Assembly (NCBI RefSeq): GCF_000372725.1
Contig: NW_005202427.1
Location: forward strand, 310,001 to 374,000
DNA: 64,000 bases
Direction of reading: 5' to 3'
Source of the DNA: Emiliania huxleyi CCMP1516
Lineage: Eukaryota
Shown here: positions 14,490 through 61,799 of the stretch, in pieces
How positions within the stretch are numbered: position 1 is the stretch's first letter
Layout: each line of letters begins with the position of its first letter
Program-made: the position numbers and the translations under genes
The notes under the pieces: generated by a model
Told to the model about the DNA's origin: nothing
Seen by the model: the letters and a program-made list of their open reading frames with translations, nothing else
Database searches by the model: none

Positions 14490-15081
14490 ACATCGCGACT
14501 CTGCCCGCTCGCTCGACCCTTTTGCCGCGAGAGGGCGCCGGCCGCGTGTAAGAGGTGGCTGGCGCCCTGAGGCGGCAATTGGTGGCGTGGGGAGTGCGGA
14601 ACGCTACTGGCGGCGCGACAGGGCCTCTCTCGATTGCGTGTGCCGCCCATCGGCACGCGGGTGCGCAGACATCGCGACTCTGCCCGCTCGCTCGACCCTT
14701 TTGCCGCGAGAGGGCGCCGGCCGCGTGTAAGAGGTGGCTGGCGGCCTGGCGCCCTGAGGCGGCATTTGGTGGGGTCAGCGTGCGGTGCTGAGTCTTACTC
14801 GTCGGCGCTGGGGCCACAGATCCCAGCGCAGAACTCTGCAACGCTGGCATACAAACACAAGAAGACTAACCCTAACCCTAACCCTAACCCTAACCCTAAC
14901 CCTAACCCTAACCCTAGGTCAGCGTGCGGTGCTGAGTCTTACTCGTCGGCGCTGGGGCCAGATCCCAGCGCAGAACCCTGCAACGCTGGCATATACAAAC
15001 ACAACAAGACTAACCCTGACCCTAACCCTAACCCTAACCCTAACCCTAACCCTCTAACCCTAATAACCGCCTAACCTAACC
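14490..15081. repeat. Internally duplicated element with interstitial telomere-type (CCCTAA)n tracts
   Basis: Duplications at about 14490-14590/14670-14770 and 14774-14916/14917-15050. (CCCTAA)n tracts at 14866-14916 and 15010-15081. Confidence 0.9.
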
Positions 15082-19899: not shown

Positions 19900-22800
19900 A
19901 TGGTCTCCAATCTCAGCGAGAGTGACCTCTATAGCTGGCTCCGTTCTCTCGACACTGAGTCGCGCGCTCGGTTGCTACGGTCGCTCTCCACGCTCGAGCA
20001 GCAGCAGCCCAGCGAGCAGCAGCCCAGCAGCAGCAGCGAGCCGCAGTTTGCGGCACAGCCAGCGTGCAGTCAGGACCTCCAGCTGGGAGCCGAGCCTCCG
20101 CCTGAAGCGGGCAGGCCGGCTGGCCCGCTGCAGCCGCCGCCACCGCCGCCGCTCCCGCTTCGAGTGGTGCCGCAAGCGCAGGCGCCGTCCGATGGGGAAG
20201 AGCCTGGGGAGCCGAGCGATGGCCTCCTTCCGCGCAGGGTGCGCTTCGGTGATCGCATTCTCGAGGGAGCCGCCGCCGCGGCAGCCGCCGCCGCCGCAGC
20301 TGCCGCCTCCCTCACTTCATATCGCGGTTCGCCTCCAGAAGGTTCGGCGCCGCCAGAGGACGCGTGCGCCGCGCTAGAGGCCGTCATCGTCGACGTCGAT
20401 CCCGCGGCAGACACGGCTCCCGAGGCTGCGACCGCGGAGGCGGCGCCGCTTGCCGCCCCGGCAGGCTTGCCGCTACCCACGGCGATTCCACCGCTGCCGC
20501 AGCCGGCTTCGCCATTGCAGAGGCCGCCGCTGGTGCCGCCGCCGCCGCCTCCTCCGCCGCCTCCGCAGCCGCAGCCGCAGCAGGGCCAGCCGTCGGGACA
20601 GCAGCAGGGTCAGCCGTGGGGACAGCAGCAGGGGCAGCAGCAAGGGCAGCAGCAAGGGCAGCAGCAAGAGCAGCAGCGGGGGCAGCAGCAAGGGCAGCAG
20701 CAGGGGCAGCAGCAGGGGGTCGAGGCAGAGGGCTCCTCGTCGGAGCCCTCCTGCGCTAGCGCCAGCGGCTGGCTCTCGCAGTCCGCCCCGAGCAGGCTCG
20801 CCCTCGACCGAGGCGCCGGAGGAAGAGGCAGCAGCACGACGATGTCGCAGATGCGGTACCTGGACCCGGCCGACCCCGAGGCGCCGCTGCGCGAGGTGTG
20901 GGGCCCCGTCCCCCGGCCGGTCGACCAGCTGTGGCAGCTCAACAGCTCGGCCGAGCTCGTCCTCTTTGCGCTCACTTGCGTCCTCCACCTCGCTACCATC
21001 TGCGCCGCCGTCGGCCTCGGGTTCGGGCGCGAGGCGGTGCCGGCGCAGGAGGACTACTTCGGGTGCAGCGGCAACATCAGCGGGCTCGTGGGCGAGGAGC
21101 ACGTCGCCGCCGCCGCCGCCGCCGCCGTCGACATGATCCTCTCGCGCGCCCTCCTCGCCGAGGCCTTTCTGATGGCTGCGTGCCTCACCTTCCTCGCCAC
21201 GCGGCGCTGCTCGGCCGCCCTCGCGATGGGCGTGCTCGGGTGACGGGCCACTGCCCCTCTGCGGCGCGCGCCCCGCCCCTCGGCGGTCCACGCCCCTCGC
21301 TGCAACCGTGCAGGTGGCACATCCTGCAGTACACGCCCGCGGCGCTCGCGTCGTCGTCGCACCCAGACGCGCTCTGCGACCTCGTGCTGCGGCGCGAGCG
21401 GGCGGCGCGTGCTCCGGCCAGCGAGGGGTGGTGCTTCACGGCGCTGGCTGTGAGCAGGTGGGAGCTGGTTGCGTACGGAGAGCTCTCCCTCTCCCTCGAC
21501 GGCTACATGTGGGTGCTCACCCTCCTCCCGCTCCTCGCCTCGTGCGTGCTTCTCTCGCTGCTGCTGGTGCGCCTCGCCCACACAACCACTCCTCCGCACA
21601 CGAGCCGCCACCCCTCCCCCCCTGCCCCCTCCCTCGGCCCCCCTGCCTCGCCCGCTCCCCCCCTCCGCCTCAGCCCCCGCGCCCCACCGCTTCCTCCACC
21701 CGCCACACATCAACACACCACACACGCACACGCCCCGCCCGCTCCGCGCCAGGTGCGCCTCCGCGTCGCCAAGGCGACGGAGGCGATGCGCATCGCCGAG
21801 CTGCGACTCCGCTCCTCGTCGCGCGAGTCGCAGCTCTCGGTTCCTTCGTCGACGGTCCGCATGAAGCGCGCCATCCGCACGTCGGACGCGCTCGCCGCCG
21901 CCGACTTTTGCTCGGCGGTCACCGCTTGCTTCACGGCCGCCGCGCCGCTGCTGCTGCCGCAGCTGCCGTCGCTCCGCTGCGAGCAGAGCCTGTACTCGCC
22001 GTCGCACGAGTGCCCCGACGGCGGGAGGGCGGGCGTCGGCCTCTCCCTCGCGCTGGTGCTCGCCTACTACCCCCTCCTCCTTCTCCTCAACGCACGGTTG
22101 CGGGGAGGGTTCGGCGGGGCGAGGCGTCCCATGCCGTTCGGCCGGGTCGCCGTCGCGGTCGCCCTCCTCGCCGCGCTCGGCGCGAGGGCGAGCCTGCTCG
22201 TCCTGCTGCCGGTGACGCTGCTCAACGTGCTCTCCACGGTGCTGCAGGCCCTCTCCGCCGCCGCCACGCTGCACATGTTCCGCTCCGTGCGCGCCGCCTC
22301 GCGCTCGCAGCTGCGCGCGCTGCGGAACATCCGAAACGGCACTTTCCACCCGGTGCCGCTTCGCTTCCAGTCAGTGCTGCGTGTCAAGGACGCGTCCGAC
22401 ATCGAGGCGCTGCTGCGCGGCTGCACCGCCGTCCGCGTCGACGGCGTCGTCGTACGCCGCGTGCCGACCCGGCGCGAGCGCGCCGCGGCGAGCTGCGCGC
22501 GCGTGCGGGCGCGGCTCGGCCAGTCCGCGTGCGGCGGCTGGCTGCTGCGCGTGCCCGCGCGCGTCGGGGAGGCGCTGCTGAGCGCCCTGGGCTGCCTCTG
22601 TTGCTGCTGCCCGACGCCCGTCCGCGCCACCGCCCGCGCCGCCCGCTCCTCCCTCGGCCGGCTGCTCGGCGGCGGGAGGCCCGCACCGCGCGGCGGCGAC
22701 TCCTTCCACAGCAGCGTCGACTCGGAGCAGGGGCTCGGCAGCTCGTCCGAGGGCCGGCGGCGCGGCGCGGCCAAGCCGAGCGAGCTGTCGATCCTCCCGT

Positions 22801-37099: not shown

Positions 37100-37950
37100 G
37101 GCGGGGGGATGCGGATTGTGAAGAGATCCCTCACAACAAGAGAGATCGTGCAGGGCGGGGACACACATGTACATGTCCATGTCCCTACCCTTTCCAGCCA
37201 AGGGATCCGTGTATCCGGGCTGCGGTGACTCCCCCAGGCCAGGGGCCAGCAAGAGGCACGACGGCTCCCATATCTCCCCCTCGTGGTCGCCCTCGCCCCC
37301 CGCCTCCTCCAGGAGCCGGGCCGCGGAGTCTTGCTCTAGGTTGCTGATGAACTCGATGGCCTCCACCCCATACAGATATTTTAGTCGGCGAAGATGTGGG
37401 TGGCCTCGCCGGCTGGACATCGCTAGGGGGGGACAGTGACTGTGCGGGTAGCCTCGCCGTCCAGGCACCTCTAGGGGGGGACAGCCTAGTCGCTGCGAGC
37501 CCGAGTTGGAGTGAGCACTCGCCGTCGTCCAGTGATAGCCCCTTCCACTGGTGAGAGCGTCCTGGGGCGGCGGTCAATCTCGATCGGCGGTCCACGGGGT
37601 GGCTGGGCGAACCGAAGAGCCCTTCGTTGGGCTGCAGCCGCCTCGCTCTCCCCCCCCGACGGCCGCCAGCGTACCCACCTCCCGGTCGCCTCCTCAGTCG
37701 GGAGCACGTCCCGGCTCATACCCCTCTTGCGGCTAACCGCCGTCGGGCCGAAGCGATCGAGTCGCCGCTGGAGGATGGAGTCCTCTTCTGTGGTGGGCAC
37801 CCACGGCCATGAGACCGACCCCTCGGCCGGGTCCACTCGCCCCGAGGGGGCTCTCCTCGCCTCCTCCCACCCCTGCCGGCGTCTCCGCTTGCCAGGCGGC
37901 GGAACCACCCCACTCGTCCCAGCCTCCCTCGCGCGACCCTGCGGAATCCC
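37100..37950 (-). mobile_element. Probable degraded retroelement remnant
   Basis: Broken purine-rich ORFs on the minus strand without host-like codon bias, next to the LINE-UTR motif at 36799-36856. Confidence 0.3.
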
Positions 37951-37959
37951 CAGTCGCTC

Positions 37960-39581
37960 GATCCCACCCGCCGCCTCCCTCCACCTCGCCCTCGCCGCCG
38001 CCCCCCTCCGCCTCGCCCGCCGCCTCCCTCCGCGTCGCCGTCGCCGCCGCCCCCCTCCGCCTCGCCGTCGCCGCCGCCTCCCTCCGCGTCGCCGTCGCCG
38101 CCGCCTCCCTCTGCCTCGCCGTCGCCGCCACCCGGCTCGCCGCCGCCGCCCTCGCCGCCGCCGCCCAGCCCGCCTCCGCCAAGCCCGCCGCCGCCGTCGC
38201 CGCCGCCCTCTCCGCCCCCGTCGCTGCCGCCCTCTCCGCCCCCGTCACCGCCGCCCTCTCCGCCCCCGTCGCCGCCGCCCTCGCCGCCGCCCTCGCCGCC
38301 GCCATCACCTCCGCCGCCCTCCGCCCCGCCCTCCGCCCCGCCCTCCGCCTCGCCGTCGCCGCCGCCTCCCTCGGCCTCGCCGTCGCCGCCGCCTCCCTCC
38401 GCCTCGCCGTCGTCGCCGCCGCCTCCCTCTGCCTCGCCGTCGCCGCCACCCGGCTCGCCGCCGCCACCCTCGCCGCCGCCGCCCAGCCCGCCTCCGCCAA
38501 GCCCGCCGCCGCCGTCGCCGCCGCCCTCTCCGCCCCCGTCGCTGCCGCCCTCTCCGCCCCCGTCACCGCCGCCCTCTCCGCCCCCGTCGCCGCCGCCCTC
38601 GCTGCCGCCCTCGCCGCCGCCATCACCTCCGCCGCCGCCCTCCGCCCCGCCCTCCGCCCCGCCCACGCCGCCGCCGCCAACGTCGCCTTTACCTGACGTG
38701 GACCCGCCGTGCTTCCCGAGCTCTGCGACGGTTCAGCGCGCCGACGGCGAGACCGCCCTCCTCTCCTCCCTCTCCGCCGGCGACTCGATCCTCGCCGCGG
38801 CGGCCGACGGCACCCTCGCTTTCGATGGCGTGAGAGCGTTTTCATCTGTTTCACAGTCGCTTACTTCTACTAGGCACCCTCGGCTTCGACGTCGTCTCCT
38901 CCTTCTCGCTGGCCCACCCGTCCGCCAAGGCGGCTTTCCTCTCGCTCGCCACCGCGACGGCGACGGTCACGCTCACCCCGACGCACAAGCTGCCCGCCGG
39001 CCCGGCAAAGGCGCTCAAGCAGGCGTCCGAGGTTGCCGTCGGAGAGACGATCTGGCTCGCGTCGCCGGCCGCGGGCACGCTCGTGCAGGCGCGTCTATAC
39101 CCCCAGCACCACACACACATCCCTGCCTCTCCCTATGCGACCCCCCCCCCCCCCCTCCTGCCAGGGGCCCGTCCTCAAGATAACCAAGGTCGTGGCCGAC
39201 GGGCTGCACAGCCCGCTCACCAAGCACGGAGGCTGGCCGGTCGTCGACGGCGTCGCGACCTCGTACAACAGCGCGGCTGTCGTCGCGCGCAACAAGTACC
39301 TCGTCCCGCTCGTCGAGGCGGTCTGCCCCTGCCTCGGCCGCCTCGTCGTGGCGGCCGTGAACCCCAAGCCGATGCACTACATCGATGGCGAGGTGAGCCC
39401 TCTCCCGCCGTCCCAAGTTATATCTCACTTGTCCCCACTCCTCCCCACCCCATCGCCCACGTTCGCCTCTCGCTCTCGACCAAAGGTGGTCGAGCCAATC
39501 TCATCGCTCGAGGTCGCCGCTGCCGTGGCCGTCACGGCCGCCGCCACTCTTGGCGTGCGCAAGATCACGGCGCGCAAGTAA
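37960..39581 (+). CDS. Pro/Ser-rich protein with Hedgehog-type Hint domain; 5' end missing or frameshifted
   Basis: SPPP repeats then PPCFPSSATVQRADG..LSAGDSIL, VTLTPTHKL, ASEVAVGETIW, GLHSPLT..VVDGVATSY. Introns 38810-38873, about 39089-39164 and 39393-39486. No start codon found; register shift near 38016. Confidence 0.8.
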
Positions 39582-47491: not shown

Positions 47492-47724
47492 GGTGCTATT
47501 TTGGGGGGTCAAGTCCAACACAAGTTGAACAACTGATTTCGGGGTTGTGCTTTTTGTCGCTGTTTCTGTTTGCGGATGTGCGAGCTTCTTGTTTCACATA
47601 ACCTATCTGTGAAAATACATTATGAATGTCCCAGGCCCGGAGGGCCTCCAGGGCTCGCACCTCAACCTCTCATAGACCAGAGGATGATCCAGAGCGTCTG
47701 CCAGAGGAGCACTGGTTGGGCTCA

Positions 47725-48145
47725 ACCCAGTTTTCCGGAAAACAAAAAGGAAAACAGAGGTCCCCAGCACTTTGCGTTTCCGGAAATTTCCAGGGAACAG
47801 AGGGTGTTTGGTGCTCCATTCTGGAAACTCGCGAGTTTCCCTGAGTCTGAGAGCTGGTCTGGGGCAAAATCTGAGGCAAAATTGAGGAAATCGACAAAAT
47901 ACCCAGGCGGTCGCAGGGTAATTTCCAGGTATACACGGGTTCTCCGCGAAATTCCCGGCATTTTGCTGATTTGGCCTAAAATTTGGCTGATTTTGGGCCC
48001 AAACCAGCCTCAGTGCTCAGACTCGGCTCAGAGGACAGAGCCAAAAATTTGACGATTTCCACGCAGTTTTCCCGGGAAAATAGAGAGGAAAAGAGAGGGT
48101 GTTGTAGAGAAAAAAGGAAAGGAAAACAGACGGGGTGCGAGAGGC
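47725..48145. mobile_element. Dispersed non-coding MITE-like repeat; inverted partial copies at about 53120-53335 and 57870-58075
   Basis: CCCCAGCACTTTGCGTTTCCGGAAATTTCCAGGG.. and GGTAATTTCCAGGTATACACGG..GGCCTAAAATTTGGCTGATTTTGG recur as reverse complements. Confidence 0.8.
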
Positions 48146-48399
48146 AAACCGGGTTGAGCCCAAAGCACTGGTGGACGAGAGAGTTCTCCTTCTCTCTATA
48201 GACCAGCGGGCGCAGCGCCATTGGAGGTTTTCTCTTCTCAATCACAAGGTCTGGGGTCCCGTACCATTCGGAGGTAGGTAGGTAGAAATTCGGAATCGAC
48301 CAGTGAAAAGAAATCCCAGCCACGTAAGAAAATCCACCTCCCGAACACGGGCAGTACCCGGTAACACAGGGTTGTCCACAACAGCGGGCGCTCGGCACC

Positions 48400-50649: not shown

Positions 50650-51266
50650 GAGCGGCCGCACACTGCTCGCTACCCCCCCTGCACAACTAAGCTCATCCCT
50701 GCTGCTAGGGGGGGGGGTCTGACCCCCCCAGCAGCAGAGCGCTGCTGCTGGGGGGGGGGGTCCCGACCCCCCCCCCAGCAGCAGAGCGCACTGGACCCCG
50801 CTCTCCCGCCTCTTCGCCGCCGCCCCCCCCTCCACCCTCGGCTCGTATTTGAGCGGTACGCTCGAGGCGGTTGTGTTCACCGCGCCTTCGAGCCCAATAC
50901 ACCTTCGTCGTGTCGAGTGCTGGCGTTTTACTAAACACTTGTGACCATGTGAGTCTATCTTGTAATACCACACGCGCCTATACATCAGTGTAGTCTCATC
51001 ATCGAGTGATTGCTGGCCTGCGGCGTATGACCTCGCGCGGATATCACCAACGACGAGCNNNNNNNNNNNNNNNNNNNNNNNNNNNNNNNNNNNNNNNNNN
51101 NNNNNNNNNNNNNNNNNNNNNNNNNNNNNNNNNNNNNNNNNNNNNNNNNNNNNNNNNNTCAGCTTAGCTGGGTCCCGACCCCACCAGCAGCAGAGCGCTG
51201 CTTCTGGGGGGGGTCGGCCATGAGCTTAGTTGTGCAGGGGGGGTAGCGAGCAGTGTGCGGCCGCTC
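50650..51266. mobile_element. TIR element (Harbinger/Tourist-like) with 3-bp TSD TAG; spans an assembly gap
   Basis: GAGCGGCCGCACACTGCTCGCTACCCCCCCTGCACAACTAAGCTCAT is inverted at the other end; TAG at 50647-50649 and 51267-51269. Confidence 0.75.
51059..51158. other. Assembly gap (100 N)
   Basis: Run of N. Confidence 1.
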
Positions 51267-52292: not shown

Positions 52293-55078
52293 TCTTACCT
52301 TATATTTCCCCGCGGCCGGTTTTCCGTTTCGGGCGACGGCACACTCACCGAGCTCTCCGGCGGGGAATCATGTCGGCGAAGGCGGGCTCTGGCGTCTCGG
52401 TGATGCGCTCCGATCTCGACGCGTCGACCTCGACGGAGGTGGACGCGCACGAGGCGCAGTGGCGGGCCGGCGTCAACCGCCAAGCACGTCCAGACGCTTC
52501 CTCGCAAAGGCTGGCGCACCTCGACGTCATTGAGTTCCAGAAGCGGGGCCTGCCGCACTGCCACATCGCGCAATCCGTCATCGCCCGGGCGGCCGCAGGC
52601 GGTGCCATCAACCCACCCTCGGCACCGCTGCACGTTCGTGCTCCCTCTCCCACCCAACTCGGCTCCACCCTCGTCCACCCGCACCCACCCCATCATCTGC
52701 TCTCAGGCTGATTGCGGCGTGTGTTGCGCAGTGCCGACCCACCAGACGCTGGCCAGAGCATGACTGTGATGCCTCTGTCTGGGCCGGGGAAGCGTTCGAC
52801 AGCGCGCAAGGTTGCCTCCCTGCCCTTTGCGACGCTTGCGACCACTGCTGAGTTGCATGCATTACAGAGTAGCAGTGGTGGGGAAGGCTTGCCCNNNNNN
52901 NNNNNNNNNNNNNNNNNNNNNNNNNNNNNNNNNNNNNNNNNNNNNNNNNNNNNNNNNNNNNNNNNNNNNNNNNNNNNNNNNNNNNNNNNNNNNNCCCCCC
53001 CCCCCCCGGGACAGAATGGTCAACTCGTGTCTACTTACCTCGTCGGCTCCATTGGCTGCCTCTCCTCGTGCGCCGCCTGCCTCTCCAACCGCTTCGTCTT
53101 TGGGCTGTCCGAGGTTTCCCTCTCGCGCCCCGTCTGTTTTCCTTCCTTTTTTCTCTACAACACCCTCTCTTTTTCTTGTATTTTCCCGGGAAATCTCCGT
53201 GGAAATCGTCAAATTTTGGGCTCTGAGCCGAGTCTGAGACTGGTTTGGGCCAAAATCAGCCAAATTTTAGGCCAAATCGGCAAAATGACCGGAATTTCGC
53301 GAAGAACCGTGTATACCTGGAAATTACCCTGCGAGCACTACGAGTCCAGCCCTTCTCAGCCAGCCAGCCAGGTGCTTCTTTCAAGAGAGAAAGACAGGGA
53401 GAGCATAGAAAGCTATCAGTGTATGTAGTCCCACCCGCAACCGCAACGGAAGCCAGAAATGCCCTCACCAATTAGAAATCTGTTGCGGATTTGTTTTTAT
53501 GACCGCGATTCCATCGGCGGTTTCGTTGCTGTGCGGCGCATCTTGGCTGTGCCGCGGACACCCAAGCCGACGCATCCGACGCTGCGGAAGCTCACCCGTC
53601 GACCTTCACCTCCCGGTGACAGGGTCGACTCTTGCTAATTGGTCTCGATGGCGTCAAACGGCCGCAATGAGGATACACCAGCTGCAGCCACCCGTGCGAG
53701 ACGGCAACCACGCCCGATGCCTCCAAGCACTGCGGCAGCGGATAACAACATGAACAACATGCCTGCGCGATCCGTCGTCGCCCGTGCGGCCGCGGGAGGT
53801 GCCATTGACACAGCCCTCAGCACCGCTGCACGTGCGCGCTCCCGCTCCCAAGCTCGGCTCCACGTTCGTCCACCCTCCCGCCCCATCATCTGCTCTCAGG
53901 CTGGTTGCGGCGTGTGTTGAGCAATGCTGACCCACCAGACGCCGGCCAGAGCATGATTGTGATGCCTCTGTCTGGGCCGGGGGAGCGTTCGACAGCGCGC
54001 AAGGCTGCCTCTCTGCCCTTTGCGACTCCTTAGACCACTGCTGTTGCCTGCAGTAACAGTAATGATGGTGGGGAGGGCTTGCGCCCCCCCCACAACCCCC
54101 CCCCCGGCATCTTGGTCAACTCGTGTCTACTCGTAGGTCAATCCACGAGCTCGATACTCGACCTACGTGGGCCTGACGTTTCTGAGCTACAAGATTCTCG
54201 CGATGAGGCAGCCACCAGCCGCATGCGCCGTCTCGGCGTGACTGCGTTGTCTCGGCGCGGGCTCCGCCGCAAGGTGGCGCGGTGCAACACAACGCTATTC
54301 ACCGCCGATAGTGGAGCCGCTCCCTCACTATGCACGGAGGCTACCACTGCCTTTGGACGTATCGGCGACGCGACTTGCGGCCGCTGCAATGCGCTGCTCT
54401 TCAAGGCCGAGTGCATGCCGATTCCCCAGCAGCGCGGTGCCGTGCGAAATCGAATATCTCAACTCACAGCGGACCTCAGGGATGCCAGAGCACGAGTTCG
54501 TCTTCAAACCGAACATGCCGATCATGCTGCTGCGCAACCTTAACCCCGCGGAGGGCCTTTGCAACGGCACCCGCCTTCTGTCACGCCGGCTGCGCTCGAA
54601 TGGCCGCCTACTCGAGGCGAAGATAATCTCGGGCACGCACTGCGGCCGCATCGTCCTGCTGCCGCGCATCGACATCAAGCCAGAGGAGGGCGCCTTCCCC
54701 TTCAACTGGAAGCGTCGACAATTTCCAGTCCGCGCGGCTTTCGCCATGACCATCAACAAGAGCCAGGGCCAGTCGCTGCGCTGTGTCGGAGTCTACCTCG
54801 CACAGCCGTGCTTCTCGCACGGACAGCTGTACGTCGCCATCTCACGTGTCGGCCACCCGGATCACCTGTGCTTTGCTCTGCTGCCCACAAACGGCGAGTA
54901 TCGCACCCGCAACGTAGTCTTTCACGACGCACTCACATGTTGACTTAGAAATACCTTATACCTTACCTTGACTAATACACGGGAAGAATTCGTTGGCGCT
55001 CTTCACTATGCACACAACCTTGGTGTGAGGAGAAATTCACGCCAGCACCCGGCGAGCCTGAACTCGTCATGCACGTAG
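52293..55078 (+). mobile_element. Internally deleted Helitron (Rep motif plus PIF1 helicase C-terminus)
   Basis: VIEFQKRGLPHCHI at about 52526-52567. MLLRNLNPAEGLCNGTRL, RRQFPVRAAFAMTINKSQGQSL and FSHGQLYVAISRV at 54480-54943. Candidate A|TC 5' end at 52293 and hairpin+GTAG|T at about 55051-55078; both ends tentative. Internal duplication at about 52570-53040/53765-54135. Confidence 0.85.
52895..52994. other. Assembly gap (100 N)
   Basis: Run of N. Confidence 1.
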
Positions 55079-55521: not shown

Positions 55522-56552
55522 GCTACTGGTTACTGGAGACTGTGCAGAGCAGTACTATTATTACTGGTTACTGGAGACCGTGCAGAGCACTCCTATTATG
55601 ACTGTGGTTACTAGACTGTGCAGAGCAGTACTATTACTGGGGACTGTGCAGAGTCCTGCTGCTGGTTACTGGAGACTGTGCAGAGCACTCCTATTATGAC
55701 TGTGGTTACTAGACTGTGCAGAGCAGTACTATTACTGGGGACTGTGCAGAGTCCTGCTGCTGGTTACTGGAGACTGTGCAGAGCACTCCTATTATGACTG
55801 TGGTTACTAGACTGTGCAGAGCAGTACTATTACTGGTTACTAGACTGTGCAGAGCAGTACTATTACTGGGGATGGTTACTGGAGACTGTGCAGAGCACTC
55901 CTATTATGACTGTGGTTACTAGACTGTGCAGAGCAGTACTATTACTGGGGACTGTGCAGAGTCCTGCTGCTGCTGGTTACTGGGGACTGTGCAGAGCACT
56001 CCTATTCTTACTGGTTACTAGACGGTGCGGAGCAGTACTATTACTGGTTACTAGACTGTGCAGAGCAGTACTATTACTGGGGACTGTGCAGAGTCCTGCT
56101 GCTGCTGGTTACTGGGGACTGTGCAGAGCACTCCTATTCTTACTGGTTACTAGACTGTGCAGAGCAGTACTATTACTGGGGACTGTGCAGAGCACTCCTA
56201 TTCTTGCTGGTTACTAGACTGTGCAGAGCAGTACTATTACTGGGGACTGTGCAGAGCACTCCTATTCTTGCTGGTTACTAGACTGTGCAGAGCAGTACTA
56301 TTACTGGGGACTGTGCAGAGCACTCCTATTCTTGCTGGTTACTAGACTGTGCAGAGCAGTACTATTACTGGGGACTGTGCTGTGCAGAGCACTCCTATTA
56401 TGACTGGGGACTGGAGACTGTGCAGAGCCACTCCTATTATTACTGGTACTAGACTGTGCAGAGTACTATTATTACTGGTTACTGGAGATTGTGCAGAGCA
56501 CTCCTATTATGACTGAGGACTGGAGACTGTGCAGAGCACTCCTGTATGACTG
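55522..56552. repeat. Complex satellite of ~25-40-bp units anchored on GACTGTGCAGAG
   Basis: About 30 units alternating GCAGTACTATTACT, CACTCCTATT and TCCTGCTGCT variants. Confidence 0.95.
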
Positions 56553-56781: not shown

Positions 56782-59251
56782 CGAGCCAGGTCACTGCCAC
56801 ACCTACGGGCAGCACGCCTCGGCGTTAGCATCGCGACGACCGGCACACTCTCTCGTGTCCTCGGCGCTAGGACTGGAGCCGGGCAGCGATTGGCAAGCGA
56901 GCGGGCTGCGTCGCTCTCTCGCCGGAAAAGAGTGGGGGCAATCGGGCGGGTTCGCTCGGTGTAAGGGTGGAGAACGAGCGGCAGCGGCCGCGTCTCGCGG
57001 CTCCTCGATGGCAGCAGCCTCGCCTGCGAACGGGAGGCGGCAGGCATTGTGAGGCCGAGATTTGGGGAAGCCGCTCGGGCGACAGCGAAGCGCATCGCAT
57101 GGTGGGAGCGGAGAGGGAGCGGCGGGTTGCGTGAGCAGGAGGCGTCGCGCCGCTCGGGCGTGCAGCTCCCCGCGGCCATATGTGCGTCGATGCGACGGGG
57201 CCAGCGCGAGCGGAACGGGAAAGGCGAGGGTTGGGCCTTGTGTGTGGTTGTCCAGCAAAGGGGGGGTGAGTGATGGCAAAGGGGGGGTTGAGTGGGCGAA
57301 AGGTTGCGGGACTAGTTTACCTCGGCTACTCCACATGACCCAAGCATCTGCACCGTGAGGTGTGATACATTGGCGCGTAAAGGATCAGTCTGCCAACAAT
57401 ATACCTAAAATAAAAAAAGTCTGGAGTCGCGTGCCTCCACAAGCCGATTAATTGAAAGCCTGCCAGAGGCGTGGCTAATCATCCTCCGAGACGCCGTTCT
57501 CAATCGCCCTCGCCCAATAGATTGGCAGGAATGCGTGCGAACGAGCGACCTGCCTGGGAATGCATGGACATGCATGAATGATAACGGGCAGGGCAGGCGA
57601 TGGGTCGCACCCACACAAGGTGAGGCACCGGTCTTCGAATGGATGGAAACTGGAGAGCTCAGGGCAACAATGCAAGATGAGACCGGAGCGCCGAGCCTCG
57701 CAACGGTGAGGGAAAGAGGCGCGGGCGGATGGTGCGAAGTGGAGGTATGGGAGGACGGTGGACAATCCTCTGCGAGCGTCACACGCGAGGAGTGGGGGCC
57801 GGAGTCGCGCCGTATTTTGCGGGTATACCTGGAAAACCCCGGGTATGCACTTGGAGTATACCTGTAAAATACCCCGAGGTATTTTGCCGGTTTCCTCGGT
57901 TTCGCCTCAGATTTTGCCCCAGACCAGCTCTCAGACTCAGTCAGTCACAGGGAAACTCGCGAGTTTCCCGAGGGAAACTCGAGAGAAACAGAATGGAGCA
58001 CCAAACACCCTCTGTTTTCCCTGGAAATTTCCGGAAACGCAAAGTGCTGGGGACCCTCTGTTTTCCTTTTTGTTTGCAAAAGTATATACACGCCAATCTG
58101 TCTCTGTCAGGATGGAGCGCTGTAGAGCTCTAGCTAGAGCTCTACATGCGTCCGGCGCGTGACTGTAGAGGTGAGCGCGATTTTGCTGTATTTGTAGAGG
58201 CTGAGATCCGCATCGCCCAGGTCTCAATCAATTCGCATGTCATCCCAGCATGGGTCTGCTGTGGATGGAGTGTGTATTCCAGGTTGTACTGAGATGCAAT
58301 AAAACATTCCAGGGATGCGATGAATGGAATGAGATCGGAGTCAAGATGGAGTCGGTTACGCGGGGAATAGGAGTCGGTTATGGTTTCTGCGGAGCGGGAG
58401 TGTGCGCAGCTCTGTCCCCCGGTCATTCCAGGTGTCACTCCAGCTCCAATGCAGAGAGTCGCCGACGCGACGCAGGTCACGGCGGACCCAACCCAGCCCC
58501 GCGCCAACTACAGCTCCCCCCCGGCATCGCACCCACAAGGGCCGCCCCTCGCGCTTTGGCCGCGCTTTGCCTTTCAAGGCCGACCCGACGCAAGTCCCCA
58601 GGGCTCTCGGGCTGGCCGGTCTGTTTTGAAGGCGCCGCTTGGGCAGGCCAAACGGCGCCGCGACCCAAACGGCCGCTGCGACGTCGTGCCTGAGGAGGAG
58701 GAGGCCGGCGAGGGCGACGAGCTGGACCTCCAGTCCTTCCTGGAGGGAGTTTCGGAAGACGACCCGGAACTCCTCCGCATCATGCCCTCTTTCACCATGC
58801 CCTCTTTCGGCGCGCTGCGCACGGTCGAAGATGCCGACCGCGCCCGAGCTGCGGCCTCTTCTGACAGCGCGCTCGATCTGCTCTGACCTGTGCGCGAGCC
58901 CAGCGAGGCACGCTTTCAGGCACGTGGGCGCTGCTTGCACGGGGCGTCGCCCGCCGCGCCCCCGCCGCATCTCCCCTTTCCCGTTCGCTCTTCTTCTCCT
59001 CCCTGTCTGGTCAGCACTAAGCGGGTCCGCACACAGCCGAGACTCCGGAGTGCGCTGTGCGGGGATCGCTCTGCCGTGCGGAGATCCGCGCCACATGTGC
59101 AGGCGCAGCTCCAGGGGCGCAGCATGAGCATCTCGCCCCCACACCCCAGCACGTGCTCTTGCGTGCGTACGGCTGTAGTGCGTCTCTCATGAACAATAGA
59201 GTAACTACAACTTGACAAAAAGAAGATATGTGCGGGGTCGGCTGATGTACG

Positions 59252-59794
59252 CAGTGCTCAAACTTTACCGGTATGGGAGTTTTTGGCTCATCAAACCGCC
59301 AAGGCCTGCACTAATCAAAAAGTGGTACGGGATACCAGTTGCCTCACGGAAATCAAAGCGAGTCGGAGTGCCTTCTTGGTGGCAAAATCGGCAAAATCGG
59401 CAAAATACCGGGGCATTTTGCGGGTAGCCTGCCGACGCGCCACGGGCCGGCGCCCGTGTGCCTCGCCGCCGCGTCCGGCGACGGCATCGATGCTGTCTGC
59501 CCGAGCGTGACTCGCAACTCCACGATTTGCGGTCCACCGACAAATTTGGCTGCCCCCATCAAAGTTGACTTCTCTCCTTAGATACACATACATACCTGGA
59601 AAAACCCGGGTATACACCCGGGTAATACCCGCGCACTTTTGCATGGTTTCACGCGCCCCCGGGACCACACCGACAGCCGCTACAACTAATGAAAACCCCG
59701 CATACCACTTTCGCATACCACTATACCATACCACTCCAAAGCTAATCAAAATATCGCCAAATACCGGTCTCATACCGGTAAAGTTTGAGCACTG
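59252..59794. mobile_element. MITE with 24-bp perfect TIRs (CAGTG start, hAT-like)
   Basis: CAGTGCTCAAACTTTACCGGTATG / CATACCGGTAAAGTTTGAGCACTG; subterminal (C)ATACC repeats; no TSD seen. Confidence 0.85.
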
Positions 59795-59827: not shown

Positions 59828-61799
59828 TCACCACTCGTACCCTGCGTGCATGCTGAAGCTGGTCTCGTCGAGAGAGAGGTGGCCCGTGTCGCCGAGGGAG
59901 ATCATCGAGACGGAACCCGTCGGGCGGATCTTGAGGTGCGTGAGGGAGCAGTTGTAGGTGCAGAGCCGCAGCCACGCCTCGGGCGGCAGCTGCAGCGCGC
60001 GCAGCGCCATGTAGCGGATCACGTTGCCGTGGCACACGACGATGTCGTACTCGTGCTGCGACACGCGCGGCGGCTTGCTCGCGCGGGGGCTGAGCTTGCC
60101 GGGGGCGGTCGCGGCGCCGGCGGCGCCGTCGGAGGCCGCCTCCGCAGCGCCGTCGCCCCGCCCGCCGCCAGCGCCGTCGTCGGGGGGGTAGGGCGGCCTG
60201 CCCCGGTAGACGAGGGCCCGATAAGCGGCCTCCATGCGCGCGCCCTCGACGTGCACCTCGCGCGCACCGTCCGCCAGCGCGCCCTTGGAGTACGGGATGC
60301 GGTGCGCGGGCGGGTACCCCTCGGCCAAGTTCGGGTCCGGCGCGAGCCTGCGGGAGGTTCCGAGAAGGTTCCGAGAAGGTTCCGAGAAGGTTCCGAGGAG
60401 GGGTCCCCCTCGGCCAAGTTCGGGTCCGGCGCGAGCCTGCGCACCCTCCCGGCGGGCAGCTCTGCGGCGATGAGGTCCGCGGTCTCCTTGGCGCGGGTCA
60501 GGGTGCCTAGAAGGTGACAACAACGCTCCCTCGCACGACACTGGGCACGGGACTGGCGCGCACTGGCTCTAACAAGAAGCAGACTACGCCAACCTCAGGG
60601 CGGGGAGACGGACTCGTGCGGAGTAGGTGGCCATGCATACGGCGGTGTGCAGAGTACTAGTGGTGCATCTACCAATCTCGGGGCGGCCTACGTGCCAATA
60701 CGCCAACCTCGGGGCACGAATACGGTGTTGTGCAGCGTCTTCAGAGCACCGCGAGAATACAACGGAGAAGAGTACAGTGGATACAGCGGAAGACGGGTGA
60801 ACACAGCTGAATGCGCGTCCTCTCGGGCGCTAGTTCGGATACCTGAATACGTGTGTCCGCTTCTAGGTCAGCGTGCTCACGTGGAGCCGCACGTGCGCCT
60901 CGCGCCCCTCCTCCTGCAGCGCGCCGCGGAGCATCTCCGCAATCCGCCGGCCGGTGGCGGTGGCCTGCTGCCTGCCGAGCGGCGTGAGGGTCTGCTCGGC
61001 GTCGAGGCGCGGGAAGGCCTCGTCGAGCGGCATGCCAAAGTCGCGGTCGGGCACGCCTACAGGAAGGCACCAGGAAGGGTCTAGGAAAGGTCCGAGAAGC
61101 GGCATGCCAAAGTCGCGGTCGGGCACGCCGGCAGGGCGGGAGAGAGCGCGCGAGAGCGGCCTCTGCTCGTCGTACTGGCCGTGCCGCACGAGGATGATGT
61201 GGCGGGTGGGCGCGCCTGGGGCGGCAGCGGTGGTGGCCATGCGGGTGACGGCGAGGCGAGGCGGGGGCGAGAGGGAGACGGGGAGGAGCGAGGGAGGAGA
61301 CGGAGGATGAAGAGAGCGCAGCCGAGAGAGCGGCCGTGGCACCTCCGTACGCGTGCTCGAGGTACGCGCGCCGGTAGAGCGCAGGCAGCTCCGCCTCGGG
61401 CGTCCGCTCCAGCAGCCGCTCCACGCGCTCGCTCGACCTGTTGGTGTGCTCGGCGTAGAGCGATCGCACGGCGTCGGCATAGTCGGCGATGGGCCAGGCG
61501 TGGCGGAGCGCGCGAGCCACCTCGCGGTCCGACGGCTCGCAGTAGTCCCAGTTCCGGTCCCACGCCGGGTACGGCCTCGCCGGCAGGAAGCGCTGCTCCT
61601 CATACTCGGCGGGCAGGTCCTGGAAGCGGATGTCATCGTCCGCCTCGCACGACGCGGCGCGCTGGAGCGCGACCGTGCCGGCGGCGGCGGCGATAGCCGC
61701 GGCGGCGGCGGCGGCGGCGGGTGCGGACGCGGCGGAGGAGCGAGAGAGGGTGGAGTGGCGTCGCGATGCCGCTCGCACTGTCGCCCTCGCAAACAACAT
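59828..61799 (-). CDS. PGAM5: PGAM5 mitochondrial Ser/Thr protein phosphatase; 5 exons
   Basis: Mitochondrial-type presequence; WDRNWD, HIILVRHGQY, LTPLGRQQA, STLTRAKETA, LAEG, IVVCHGNVIRY, ALQLPPEAWLR and GDTGHL. Introns 61216-61342, 61057-61128, 60507-60876 and 60348-60436. Confidence 0.92.
60507..60866. mobile_element. Intron-forming insertion (introner-like) with CTAGAAG TIRs and ~10-bp TSD
   Basis: Ends CTAGAAG (60507-60513) and CTTCTAG (60860-60866); flanks GTCAGGGTGC and GTCAGCGTGC. Confidence 0.65.

What the first reader, a model, noticed from the sequence alone, without database searches (positions are those of the whole stretch)
60497..60876. Introner-like element: TIR insertion spliced out via a GC donor in its own target-site duplication
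Seen: a 360-bp insert with CTAGAAG...CTTCTAG ends sits between GTCAGGGTGC and GTCAGCGTGC (9/10 match) inside the PGAM5 motif HVSTLTRAKETA. On the minus strand the donor A^GCACGC (60876) lies in the duplicated target and the acceptor CTAG^ (60507) lies in the element end. Splicing regenerates H-V-S-T-L-T-R exactly; unspliced there is an in-frame TAG. Established: introner DNA transposons in other algae take one splice site from the TSD or host and one from the TIR. Inference: a candidate GC-donor introner family in this lineage.
Basis: partly seen in the sequence, partly recalled or inferred. Interest (0 to 1): 0.85.

Follow-up and report, generated by a model that had tools for sequence, protein, structure and literature searches.

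The report
Old transposon-derived intron in Emiliania PGAM5
A 360-base insert with inverted ends, related to sequences in introns of a second gene, interrupts a phosphatase gene of the alga Emiliania huxleyi and is likely an old DNA transposon that the cell splices out as an intron, a known route of intron birth already reported in this species for other families.

Summary
Observation confirmed: 360-bp insert (60507-60866), imperfect inverted ends (11/13), 9/10 flanking repeat; only the 60876/60507 junction restores HVSTLTRAKET, which holds the catalytic Arg. The window is Emiliania huxleyi; the public gene model skips VSTLTRAK. The insert is not single-copy: a metagenome scan found the same insertion in 2 loci and about 70%-identical relatives in two introns of a sulfate-permease gene. 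Those relatives have lost the 3' end, and the target duplication of the one that can be checked is not significant (p 0.08). No junction read, spliced protein or empty allele was obtained, and a strong GT donor lies 4 nt upstream. GC donors are the majority in this species and introners are already catalogued in it (5 families in 2022, 3 in 2025; all short or LTR-type, none like this). Neighbouring introns also sit between exon duplications, so the repeat alone is weak evidence. Verdict: likely an old MITE-type introner, a new member of a known kind. The scan has noted similar events on other DNA.

The parts
60507..60866 (-). 360-bp non-coding insert (MITE-like element), 59% GC
   Evidence: same insertion in L003 and L011; about 70%-identical relatives in L007, L009, L014, L015
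60854..60866 (-). 5' inverted-repeat arm (CTAGAAGCGGACA); contains the in-frame TAG
   Evidence: the first 17 nt are shared with the sulfate-permease copy, by construction of the scan
60507..60519 (-). 3' inverted-repeat arm ending CTTCTAG; supplies the predicted splice acceptor
   Evidence: 11/13 complementary to the 5' arm; only acceptor that restores the motif
60867..60876 (-). upstream copy of the 10-bp direct repeat (putative target-site duplication); predicted GC donor at 60876; intronic after splicing
   Evidence: 2 of 9 cluster proteins carry amino-acid changes in this copy
60497..60506 (-). downstream copy of the direct repeat; start of the next exon (codes S-T-L-T)
   Evidence: the one L011 difference here is synonymous
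60507..60876 (-). predicted 370-nt GC-AG intron, phase 1
   Evidence: predicted from protein conservation, no RNA read
60585..60733 (-). three internal imperfect repeats of a ~17-nt motif (60585-60619, 60672-60686, 60699-60733)
   Evidence: self-BLAST; D8; the two sulfate-permease copies each keep a different repeat
60875..60880 (-). rival GT donor (cac^GTGAGC) 4 nt upstream of the GC donor
   Evidence: its use would explain the public model P0005, which lacks VSTLTRAK
59828..61799 (-). host gene, PGAM5-type histidine phosphatase; predicted exons 61799-61343, 61215-61129, 61056-60877, 60506-60437, 60347-59828
   Evidence: stop-free frame; PF00300; matches named E. huxleyi record P0005
61057..61128 (-). 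neighbouring predicted 72-nt GC-AG intron whose first 31 nt duplicate the next exon
60348..60436 (-). neighbouring predicted 89-nt GC-AG intron within a ~41-nt exon duplication, filled with 11-bp repeats

Best explanation
The insert is likely an old, non-autonomous cut-and-paste DNA transposon (MITE) that landed in a PGAM5 exon, likely duplicated about 10 bp of target, and is predicted to be removed as a GC-AG intron using a donor in the upstream duplicate and an acceptor in its own CTAG end. Shown: the insert, its inverted ends, the flanking repeat, the exact restoration of the conserved motif, and related sequence in two introns of another gene. Inferred: transposase-mediated insertion, use of this junction in mRNA, and that the sulfate-permease copies are deleted descendants of a full-length element. 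Because the inverted end begins with the palindrome CTAG, either orientation would offer an acceptor, so any insertion whose duplicated target starts with GY would be removed without a scar; GC donors being normal in this species would make such insertions easy to tolerate.
For: Inverted ends and inverted-end-inside-direct-repeat layout far above shuffles. Among the GT/GC/GA donor and AG acceptor pairs tested that keep the frame through TRAKET, only 60876/60507 gives the motif with no gain or loss; the motif regex matches 109 of 120 homologs and the exact HVSTLTRAKET 4 of 120; its Arg aligns with human R152, a catalytic residue (PMC5501728 passages). Second locus: an intron of a sulfate-permease gene (PF00916) carries a relative starting 11 nt after a GC donor, 88 of 129 identical in the 5' part, score 106 without the seed against a maximum of 42 in 300 shuffles; L007 holds a third copy in an upstream intron of that gene (105 of 147 identical). 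These two copies are 100 of 103 identical to each other at the 5' end, but one keeps internal repeat R3 and the other R1, as expected of separate deletions from a full-length form. Wild allele L011 differs at 11 of 360 insert positions, while all 5 exonic differences downstream and 1 more in L003 are synonymous, so the gene is still under selection past the insert. Other elements with perfect inverted ends and 8-bp duplications lie in the same window.
Against: No RNA read or spliced protein for the junction: 2 proteins of >=112 aa among 102 candidates for the upstream exon, neither spliced here; 2 among 143 for the downstream exon, neither from this gene. The GC donor has A at -1 and competes with cac^GTGAGC. 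No second copy with both ends: the relatives lack CTTCTAG, their 3' homology is weak (local p 0.14-0.31; anchored p 0.04, or 0.006 after trimming chosen by eye), and the flanking repeat of the checkable copy is not significant (1,626 of 20,000 random pairs score as well). No empty allele among 2 loci and 9 cluster proteins. Two neighbouring introns without inverted ends also begin with duplicates of the next exon. No transposase among 47 window ORFs scanned. In L014 and L015, which lack other introns, the element-bearing intron is retained (selected by my search).
Confidence: 0.68

Rival explanations
1. The intron arose by a general haptophyte process that duplicates a variable stretch of exon (9-43 nt) and inserts filler ending in YAG, for example break repair or a retro-type insertion. 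The mobile unit would be the ~180-nt 5' module ending at an internal YAG, and the inverted end a secondary or chance feature.
For: Neighbouring introns have 31- and ~41-nt exon duplications with repeat filler and no inverted ends, and further candidates lie at 14774, 21567 and 38810. The L007 copy ends at the internal CGTAG and is followed by a 15-nt exon duplicate, filler and a new AG. The 3' arm resembles other acceptors of this species (CCTTCC...TAG). An earlier scan note (e1-2577349, unchecked) describes 15-bp-repeat-flanked introns in another haptophyte.
Against: The 11/13 inverted match is unique in the window and absent from 20,000 shuffles that keep the 3' 8 nt fixed. The 3' half of the insert is built from the element's own internal repeats, and the L009 copy matches repeat R3 better than R1 (61 against 50), which points to a full-length ancestor.
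Confidence: 0.2
2. The insert is a transposon, but it is not cleanly spliced: the GT donor at 60880 or intron retention dominates, and the gene gives little or no intact enzyme or uses a different in-frame junction.
For: Strong GT donor and many in-frame alternatives; no spliced protein found; intron retention is pervasive in E. huxleyi (478 of 535 introns with read-through, PMC4028052); the related intron is retained in L014 and L015.
Against: All 6 exonic allele differences are synonymous, 5 of them downstream of the insert; every alternative junction adds or removes residues next to the catalytic Arg.
Confidence: 0.08
3. This is an ordinary old intron; the flanking repeat and inverted ends are coincidences in GC-rich DNA, and it merely contains a piece of a dispersed repeat that inserted later.
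For: 9/10 repeats at YAG^GY sites are as common as at control sites when position is free; homology to the relatives is firm only for the 5' part and one internal repeat.
Against: The repeat sits exactly at both splice points (34 of 20,000 by chance) and directly abuts the inverted ends; the relative also starts 11 nt after its donor; element plus one repeat accounts for the whole intron.
Confidence: 0.04

Closest known systems
Introner-like elements of Symbiodinium, Polarella glacialis classes 4/5 and 6/8/10, and Aureococcus (bioRxiv 10.1101/2020.10.14.339549, passages; PMC9860276 Fig. 2B legend)
   Same: Inverted repeat ends at the 3' splice site; the 5' end of one target duplicate is the donor, often GC; no change to the mRNA; usable in either orientation in some classes.
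   Different: Duplication here is 10 bp on the simplest parse (those classes: 4 or 8 nt; PMC9860276 gives 3-9 bp for earlier families); element is longer (360 bp); only three diverged copies seen, not hundreds of near-identical ones.
E. huxleyi CCMP1516 introner families in Gozashti et al. 2022 (PMC9860276 supplement: 653 elements, 5 families) and 2025 (PMC12130899 supplement 8: fam11, fam24, fam4)
   Same: Same species; fam24 is noted as '10bp terminal direct repeats', co-opting the 5' site and carrying the 3' site; fam11 has GC donors in 3 of 6.
   Different: Listed mean lengths are 37-70 in 2022 with TSD/TIR '?' or 'N'; the 2025 rows span about 30-70 nt, fam24 is all GT and fam4 is LTR-type. 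None is a 360-bp inverted-repeat element. Their sequences were not seen, so non-identity rests on length and splice-site columns.
Mutator-like (9-11 bp duplication) or hAT-like (8 bp) MITEs (duplication lengths recalled, from no call)
   Same: Short non-coding element with inverted ends, internal repeats and a duplication of 10 or 8 bp depending on the parse.
   Different: No transposase found; arms are short and imperfect; superfamily cannot be assigned.

Membership tests
Introner | Similar sequences in introns at unrelated positions | tested here: met
   Three insertions in two genes, 68-71% identical to the window copy in the shared part; fewer and more diverged than catalogued families
Introner | Insertion creates the intron: homology begins and ends at the intron boundaries | tested here: inconclusive
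   Met in PGAM5 (intron = one repeat + element) and at the 5' end in L009 (11 nt after the donor); the 3' ends of both relatives are decayed or truncated and the 5' end of the L007 copy is off the contig
Introner | Removed from mRNA at the predicted junction | not tested
   No reads obtained; indirect support only from motif restoration and synonymous exon differences; no spliced protein found
Introner | Recent gain: empty allele or intron-free ortholog at the site | tested here: inconclusive
   Insert present in L003 and L011 and implied in 9 of 9 cluster proteins; homologs have the motif contiguous, but their DNA was not seen
TIR DNA transposon / MITE | Terminal inverted repeats | tested here: met
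   11/13, 0 of 20,000 shuffles; for this copy only
TIR DNA transposon / MITE | Insertion-specific target duplication of constant length | tested here: inconclusive
   9/10 here; 8 matches with one gap in L009, p 0.08; 8-bp parse also possible
TIR DNA transposon / MITE | High copy number and a cognate transposase | not testable with these tools
   No whole genome held; no other copy in the 64-kb window by BLAST or profile; no transposase domain among 47 window ORFs

The most novel reading that the evidence does not exclude
E. huxleyi carries an uncatalogued, old ~360-bp MITE introner family with a 10-bp target duplication (longer than the 3-9 bp reported for earlier introners) and CTAG ends that give an acceptor in both orientations. 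It is invisible to annotation-based surveys because gene models mis-place GC-AG junctions, and its decayed copies stay spliceable by gaining new acceptors through exon duplication plus repeat filler; such elements would account for a real share of the species' GC-majority donors.
Probability: 0.22. Interest if true: 0.6.

Novelty: new member of a known kind. Interest (0 to 1): 0.36.

Why it matters
If confirmed it adds a long, inverted-repeat, GC-donor family to the short introner families listed for a major bloom-forming alga, corrects a public gene model that drops the catalytic Arg of PGAM5, and shows that introner counts built on GT-biased gene models can miss older families. It would also give a handle on why GC donors dominate in this species: donors copied from GC-rich exon sequence at insertion. 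The mechanism itself is already described in dinoflagellates and pelagophytes.

Tried and rejected
Whole-genome copy search was impossible: no genome held, and the metagenome loci are not held as records. No sequencing reads were obtained, so splicing and polymorphism were not tested on reads. Viral contig scans: both-ends pattern 0, 17-mer 0, two Emiliania-type repeat patterns 0 and 0, internal 18-mer 7 loci that match only the seed. Prokaryote genome scans: element pattern 0; repeat pattern 2 bacterial records, set aside as chance by their titles. Plasmids: no match. Of the 17 metagenome loci, 11 matched only the seed and were dropped as chance. No other copy in the window. The intron RNA folds no better than shuffles (z +1.70, 95 of 100 as good), and Rfam gave 1 weak match outside the insert (E 0.59), so a structured or self-splicing RNA was rejected. 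An 8-bp duplication with CCTAG ends was considered; the base before CTAG follows the exon in both checkable copies (C/C here, T/T in L009), which favours 10 bp but rests on two copies. The idea that the window is a relative of E. huxleyi (63% identity) was dropped: the low figure comes from gaps in the public model. The 2013 genome paper was not held; its statement about 10-11-bp intron repeats is recalled only.

Full report
Observation. Removing 60507-60876 from the minus strand gives RLHVSTLTRAKETAD; left in, the frame stops at a TAG inside the element end. The inverted ends extend to 11 of 13 bases; they are the only two such matches among 128,000 positions of the window, and 0 of 20,000 shuffles with the 3' 8 nt held fixed reproduce them. 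A direct repeat of 10 bp or more abutting such ends occurs 3 times in the window and never in 5 shuffled windows. The direct repeat alone is weak: with position free, 17 of 202 and 16 of 185 YAG^GY sites have a 9/10 upstream copy, like control sites; at two fixed GC sites the chance is 34 in 20,000.

Organism and gene. The upstream exon is 98% identical to named record P0005, EMIHUDRAFT_199455 of Emiliania huxleyi CCMP1516. That model reads RLH-ETADL and lacks VSTLTRAK; it is the only E. huxleyi record found and one of 11 of 120 homologs that miss my motif pattern. The Arg of STLTR aligns with human PGAM5 R152 through homolog P0001, named as catalytic in PMC5501728 (passages). Five predicted exons give a stop-free frame. 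Of the donor/acceptor pairs tested, only 60876/60507 restores the motif exactly, but a good GT donor (cac^GTGAGC, 60880) lies 4 nt upstream and the GC donor has A at -1.

Is it spliced? Not shown. No reads were obtained. Protein searches with the flanking exons found no spliced product (2 hits among 102 candidates; 2 among 143). Indirect support: allele L011 differs at 11 of 360 insert positions, whereas its 5 exonic differences, all downstream of the insert, and one more in L003 are synonymous. Of 9 cluster proteins that end at this point, 7 end HVSTLT and 2 carry amino-acid changes (HVSTLA, HVSKLT) in the upstream repeat copy, as expected if that copy is intronic (their DNA was not seen).

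Is it a family? One metagenome scan with the first 17 nt gave 17 loci: 11 seed-only chance matches, 2 (L003, L011) with the same insertion at the same site, and 4 (L007, L009, L014, L015) from a sulfate-permease gene. There a 264-nt intron with a GC donor carries, from 11 nt after the donor, a relative of the insert (88 of 129 identical; score 106 without the seed against at most 42 in 300 shuffles). L007 holds a further copy in an upstream intron of the same gene (105 of 147). The two permease copies are 100 of 103 identical at the 5' end, yet one aligns best with internal repeat R3 and the other ends at R1; I infer separate deletions from a full-length element like the PGAM5 copy. Neither ends in CTTCTAG. 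The tail of the L009 copy is colinear with the PGAM5 3' end but weakly (local p 0.14-0.31; anchored p 0.04) and is followed by tandem filler that supplies a new AG. Its flanking repeat (8 matches, one gap) is not significant (p 0.08). L014 and L015 lack introns present in L009, so they look RNA-derived, yet they retain this intron; my search selected for that. No further copy lies in the window, and no empty allele was seen.

Context that lowers the weight of the duplication. The two neighbouring PGAM5 introns begin with 31- and ~41-nt duplicates of the next exon and contain pyrimidine-rich 10-11-bp repeat filler, with no inverted ends; similar candidates lie at 14774, 21567 and 38810. So exon duplication at GC donors is a wider habit of this genome. 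On the other side, the window holds unrelated elements with perfect inverted ends and perfect 8-bp duplications, so cut-and-paste MITEs have been active here.

Mechanism. Most likely (0.68) an old MITE insertion: the duplicated target begins with GC and becomes the donor, the CTAG end becomes the acceptor, and splicing removes element plus one duplicate without a scar. On the + strand the same layout reads G^GT...CTAG^GT, so either orientation would have worked at this site. Rivals: general duplication-plus-filler intron formation with a mobile 5' module (0.2), poor or different splicing (0.08), coincidence (0.04).

What is known. The layout is that of Symbiodinium, Polarella and Aureococcus introner-like elements (bioRxiv 10.1101/2020.10.14.339549, passages; PMC9860276, passages; review PMC11282704, parts 1-2 of 5 and one passage). 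GC donors are 56-65% of validated E. huxleyi junctions and read-through was seen in 478 of 535 introns (PMC4028052, passages). Introners are catalogued in CCMP1516: 653 elements in 5 families of mean length 37-70 (PMC9860276 supplement rows, file cut when stored) and 3 families in PMC12130899 (supplement 8 rows; files 13-14 not searched), one noted for 10-bp terminal direct repeats. None matches in length or ends, but the consensus sequences were not seen. Literature searches for introner+Emiliania, huxleyi+intron+tandem repeat+donor, huxleyi+introns+repeats+10-11 and huxleyi+MITE+intron+transposon (listings only) showed no description of this element; subscription papers are not covered.

Verdict. 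Real feature, likely transposon-derived intron of an old family not evident in the published lists; new member of a known kind; interest 0.36. Earlier scan notes record comparable MITE-to-intron events on other DNA.

Noticed in passing
window 47716-48163: 448-bp element with 13/13 inverted ends and a perfect 8-bp duplication; related pieces at 53100-53334 (86%) and 57856-58075 (78%).
   Followed up: partly
window 50660-51256: Element with a 37-bp perfect inverted repeat and perfect 8-bp duplication, holding a nested element (50744-51191) with its own 8- or 10-bp duplication; spans an N gap.
   Followed up: partly
window 59252-59794: 543-bp element with 24-bp perfect inverted ends starting CAGTG, flanked by CG on both sides rather than TA, just downstream of the PGAM5 stop; P0005 reads into it.
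   Followed up: partly
window 14774-14960: 43-nt direct repeat around filler that contains a telomere-type (CCCTAA)n run ending CCCTAG, which forms a GT...AG unit; the 14 nt across its 3' junction equal those at the insert's 60863-60876 junction, probably by chance.
   Followed up: no
window 61057-61128, 60348-60436, 38810-38873, 21567-21752: Candidate introns whose first 9-41 nt duplicate the next exon, with the GC/GT donor inside the duplicate and no inverted ends.
   Followed up: partly
L007 165-217 and L009 1066-1267 (oriented coordinates): Sulfate-permease gene has a 16-nt micro-exon preceded by a duplicated acceptor, and an intron spliced from either a GC donor (L015) or a GT donor about 20 nt further in (L014).
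   Followed up: partly
window 54242-54940 and 52568-54026: Pif1-type helicase fragment (PF21530) beside a 1.2-kb-spaced duplication and a ~100-bp satellite at 55588-56530; possibly a Helitron remnant.
   Followed up: no
window 37813-39180: Low-complexity Pro/Ala/Ser-rich frame with a weak Hint module match (E 2.2e-5, below cut-off).
   Followed up: no
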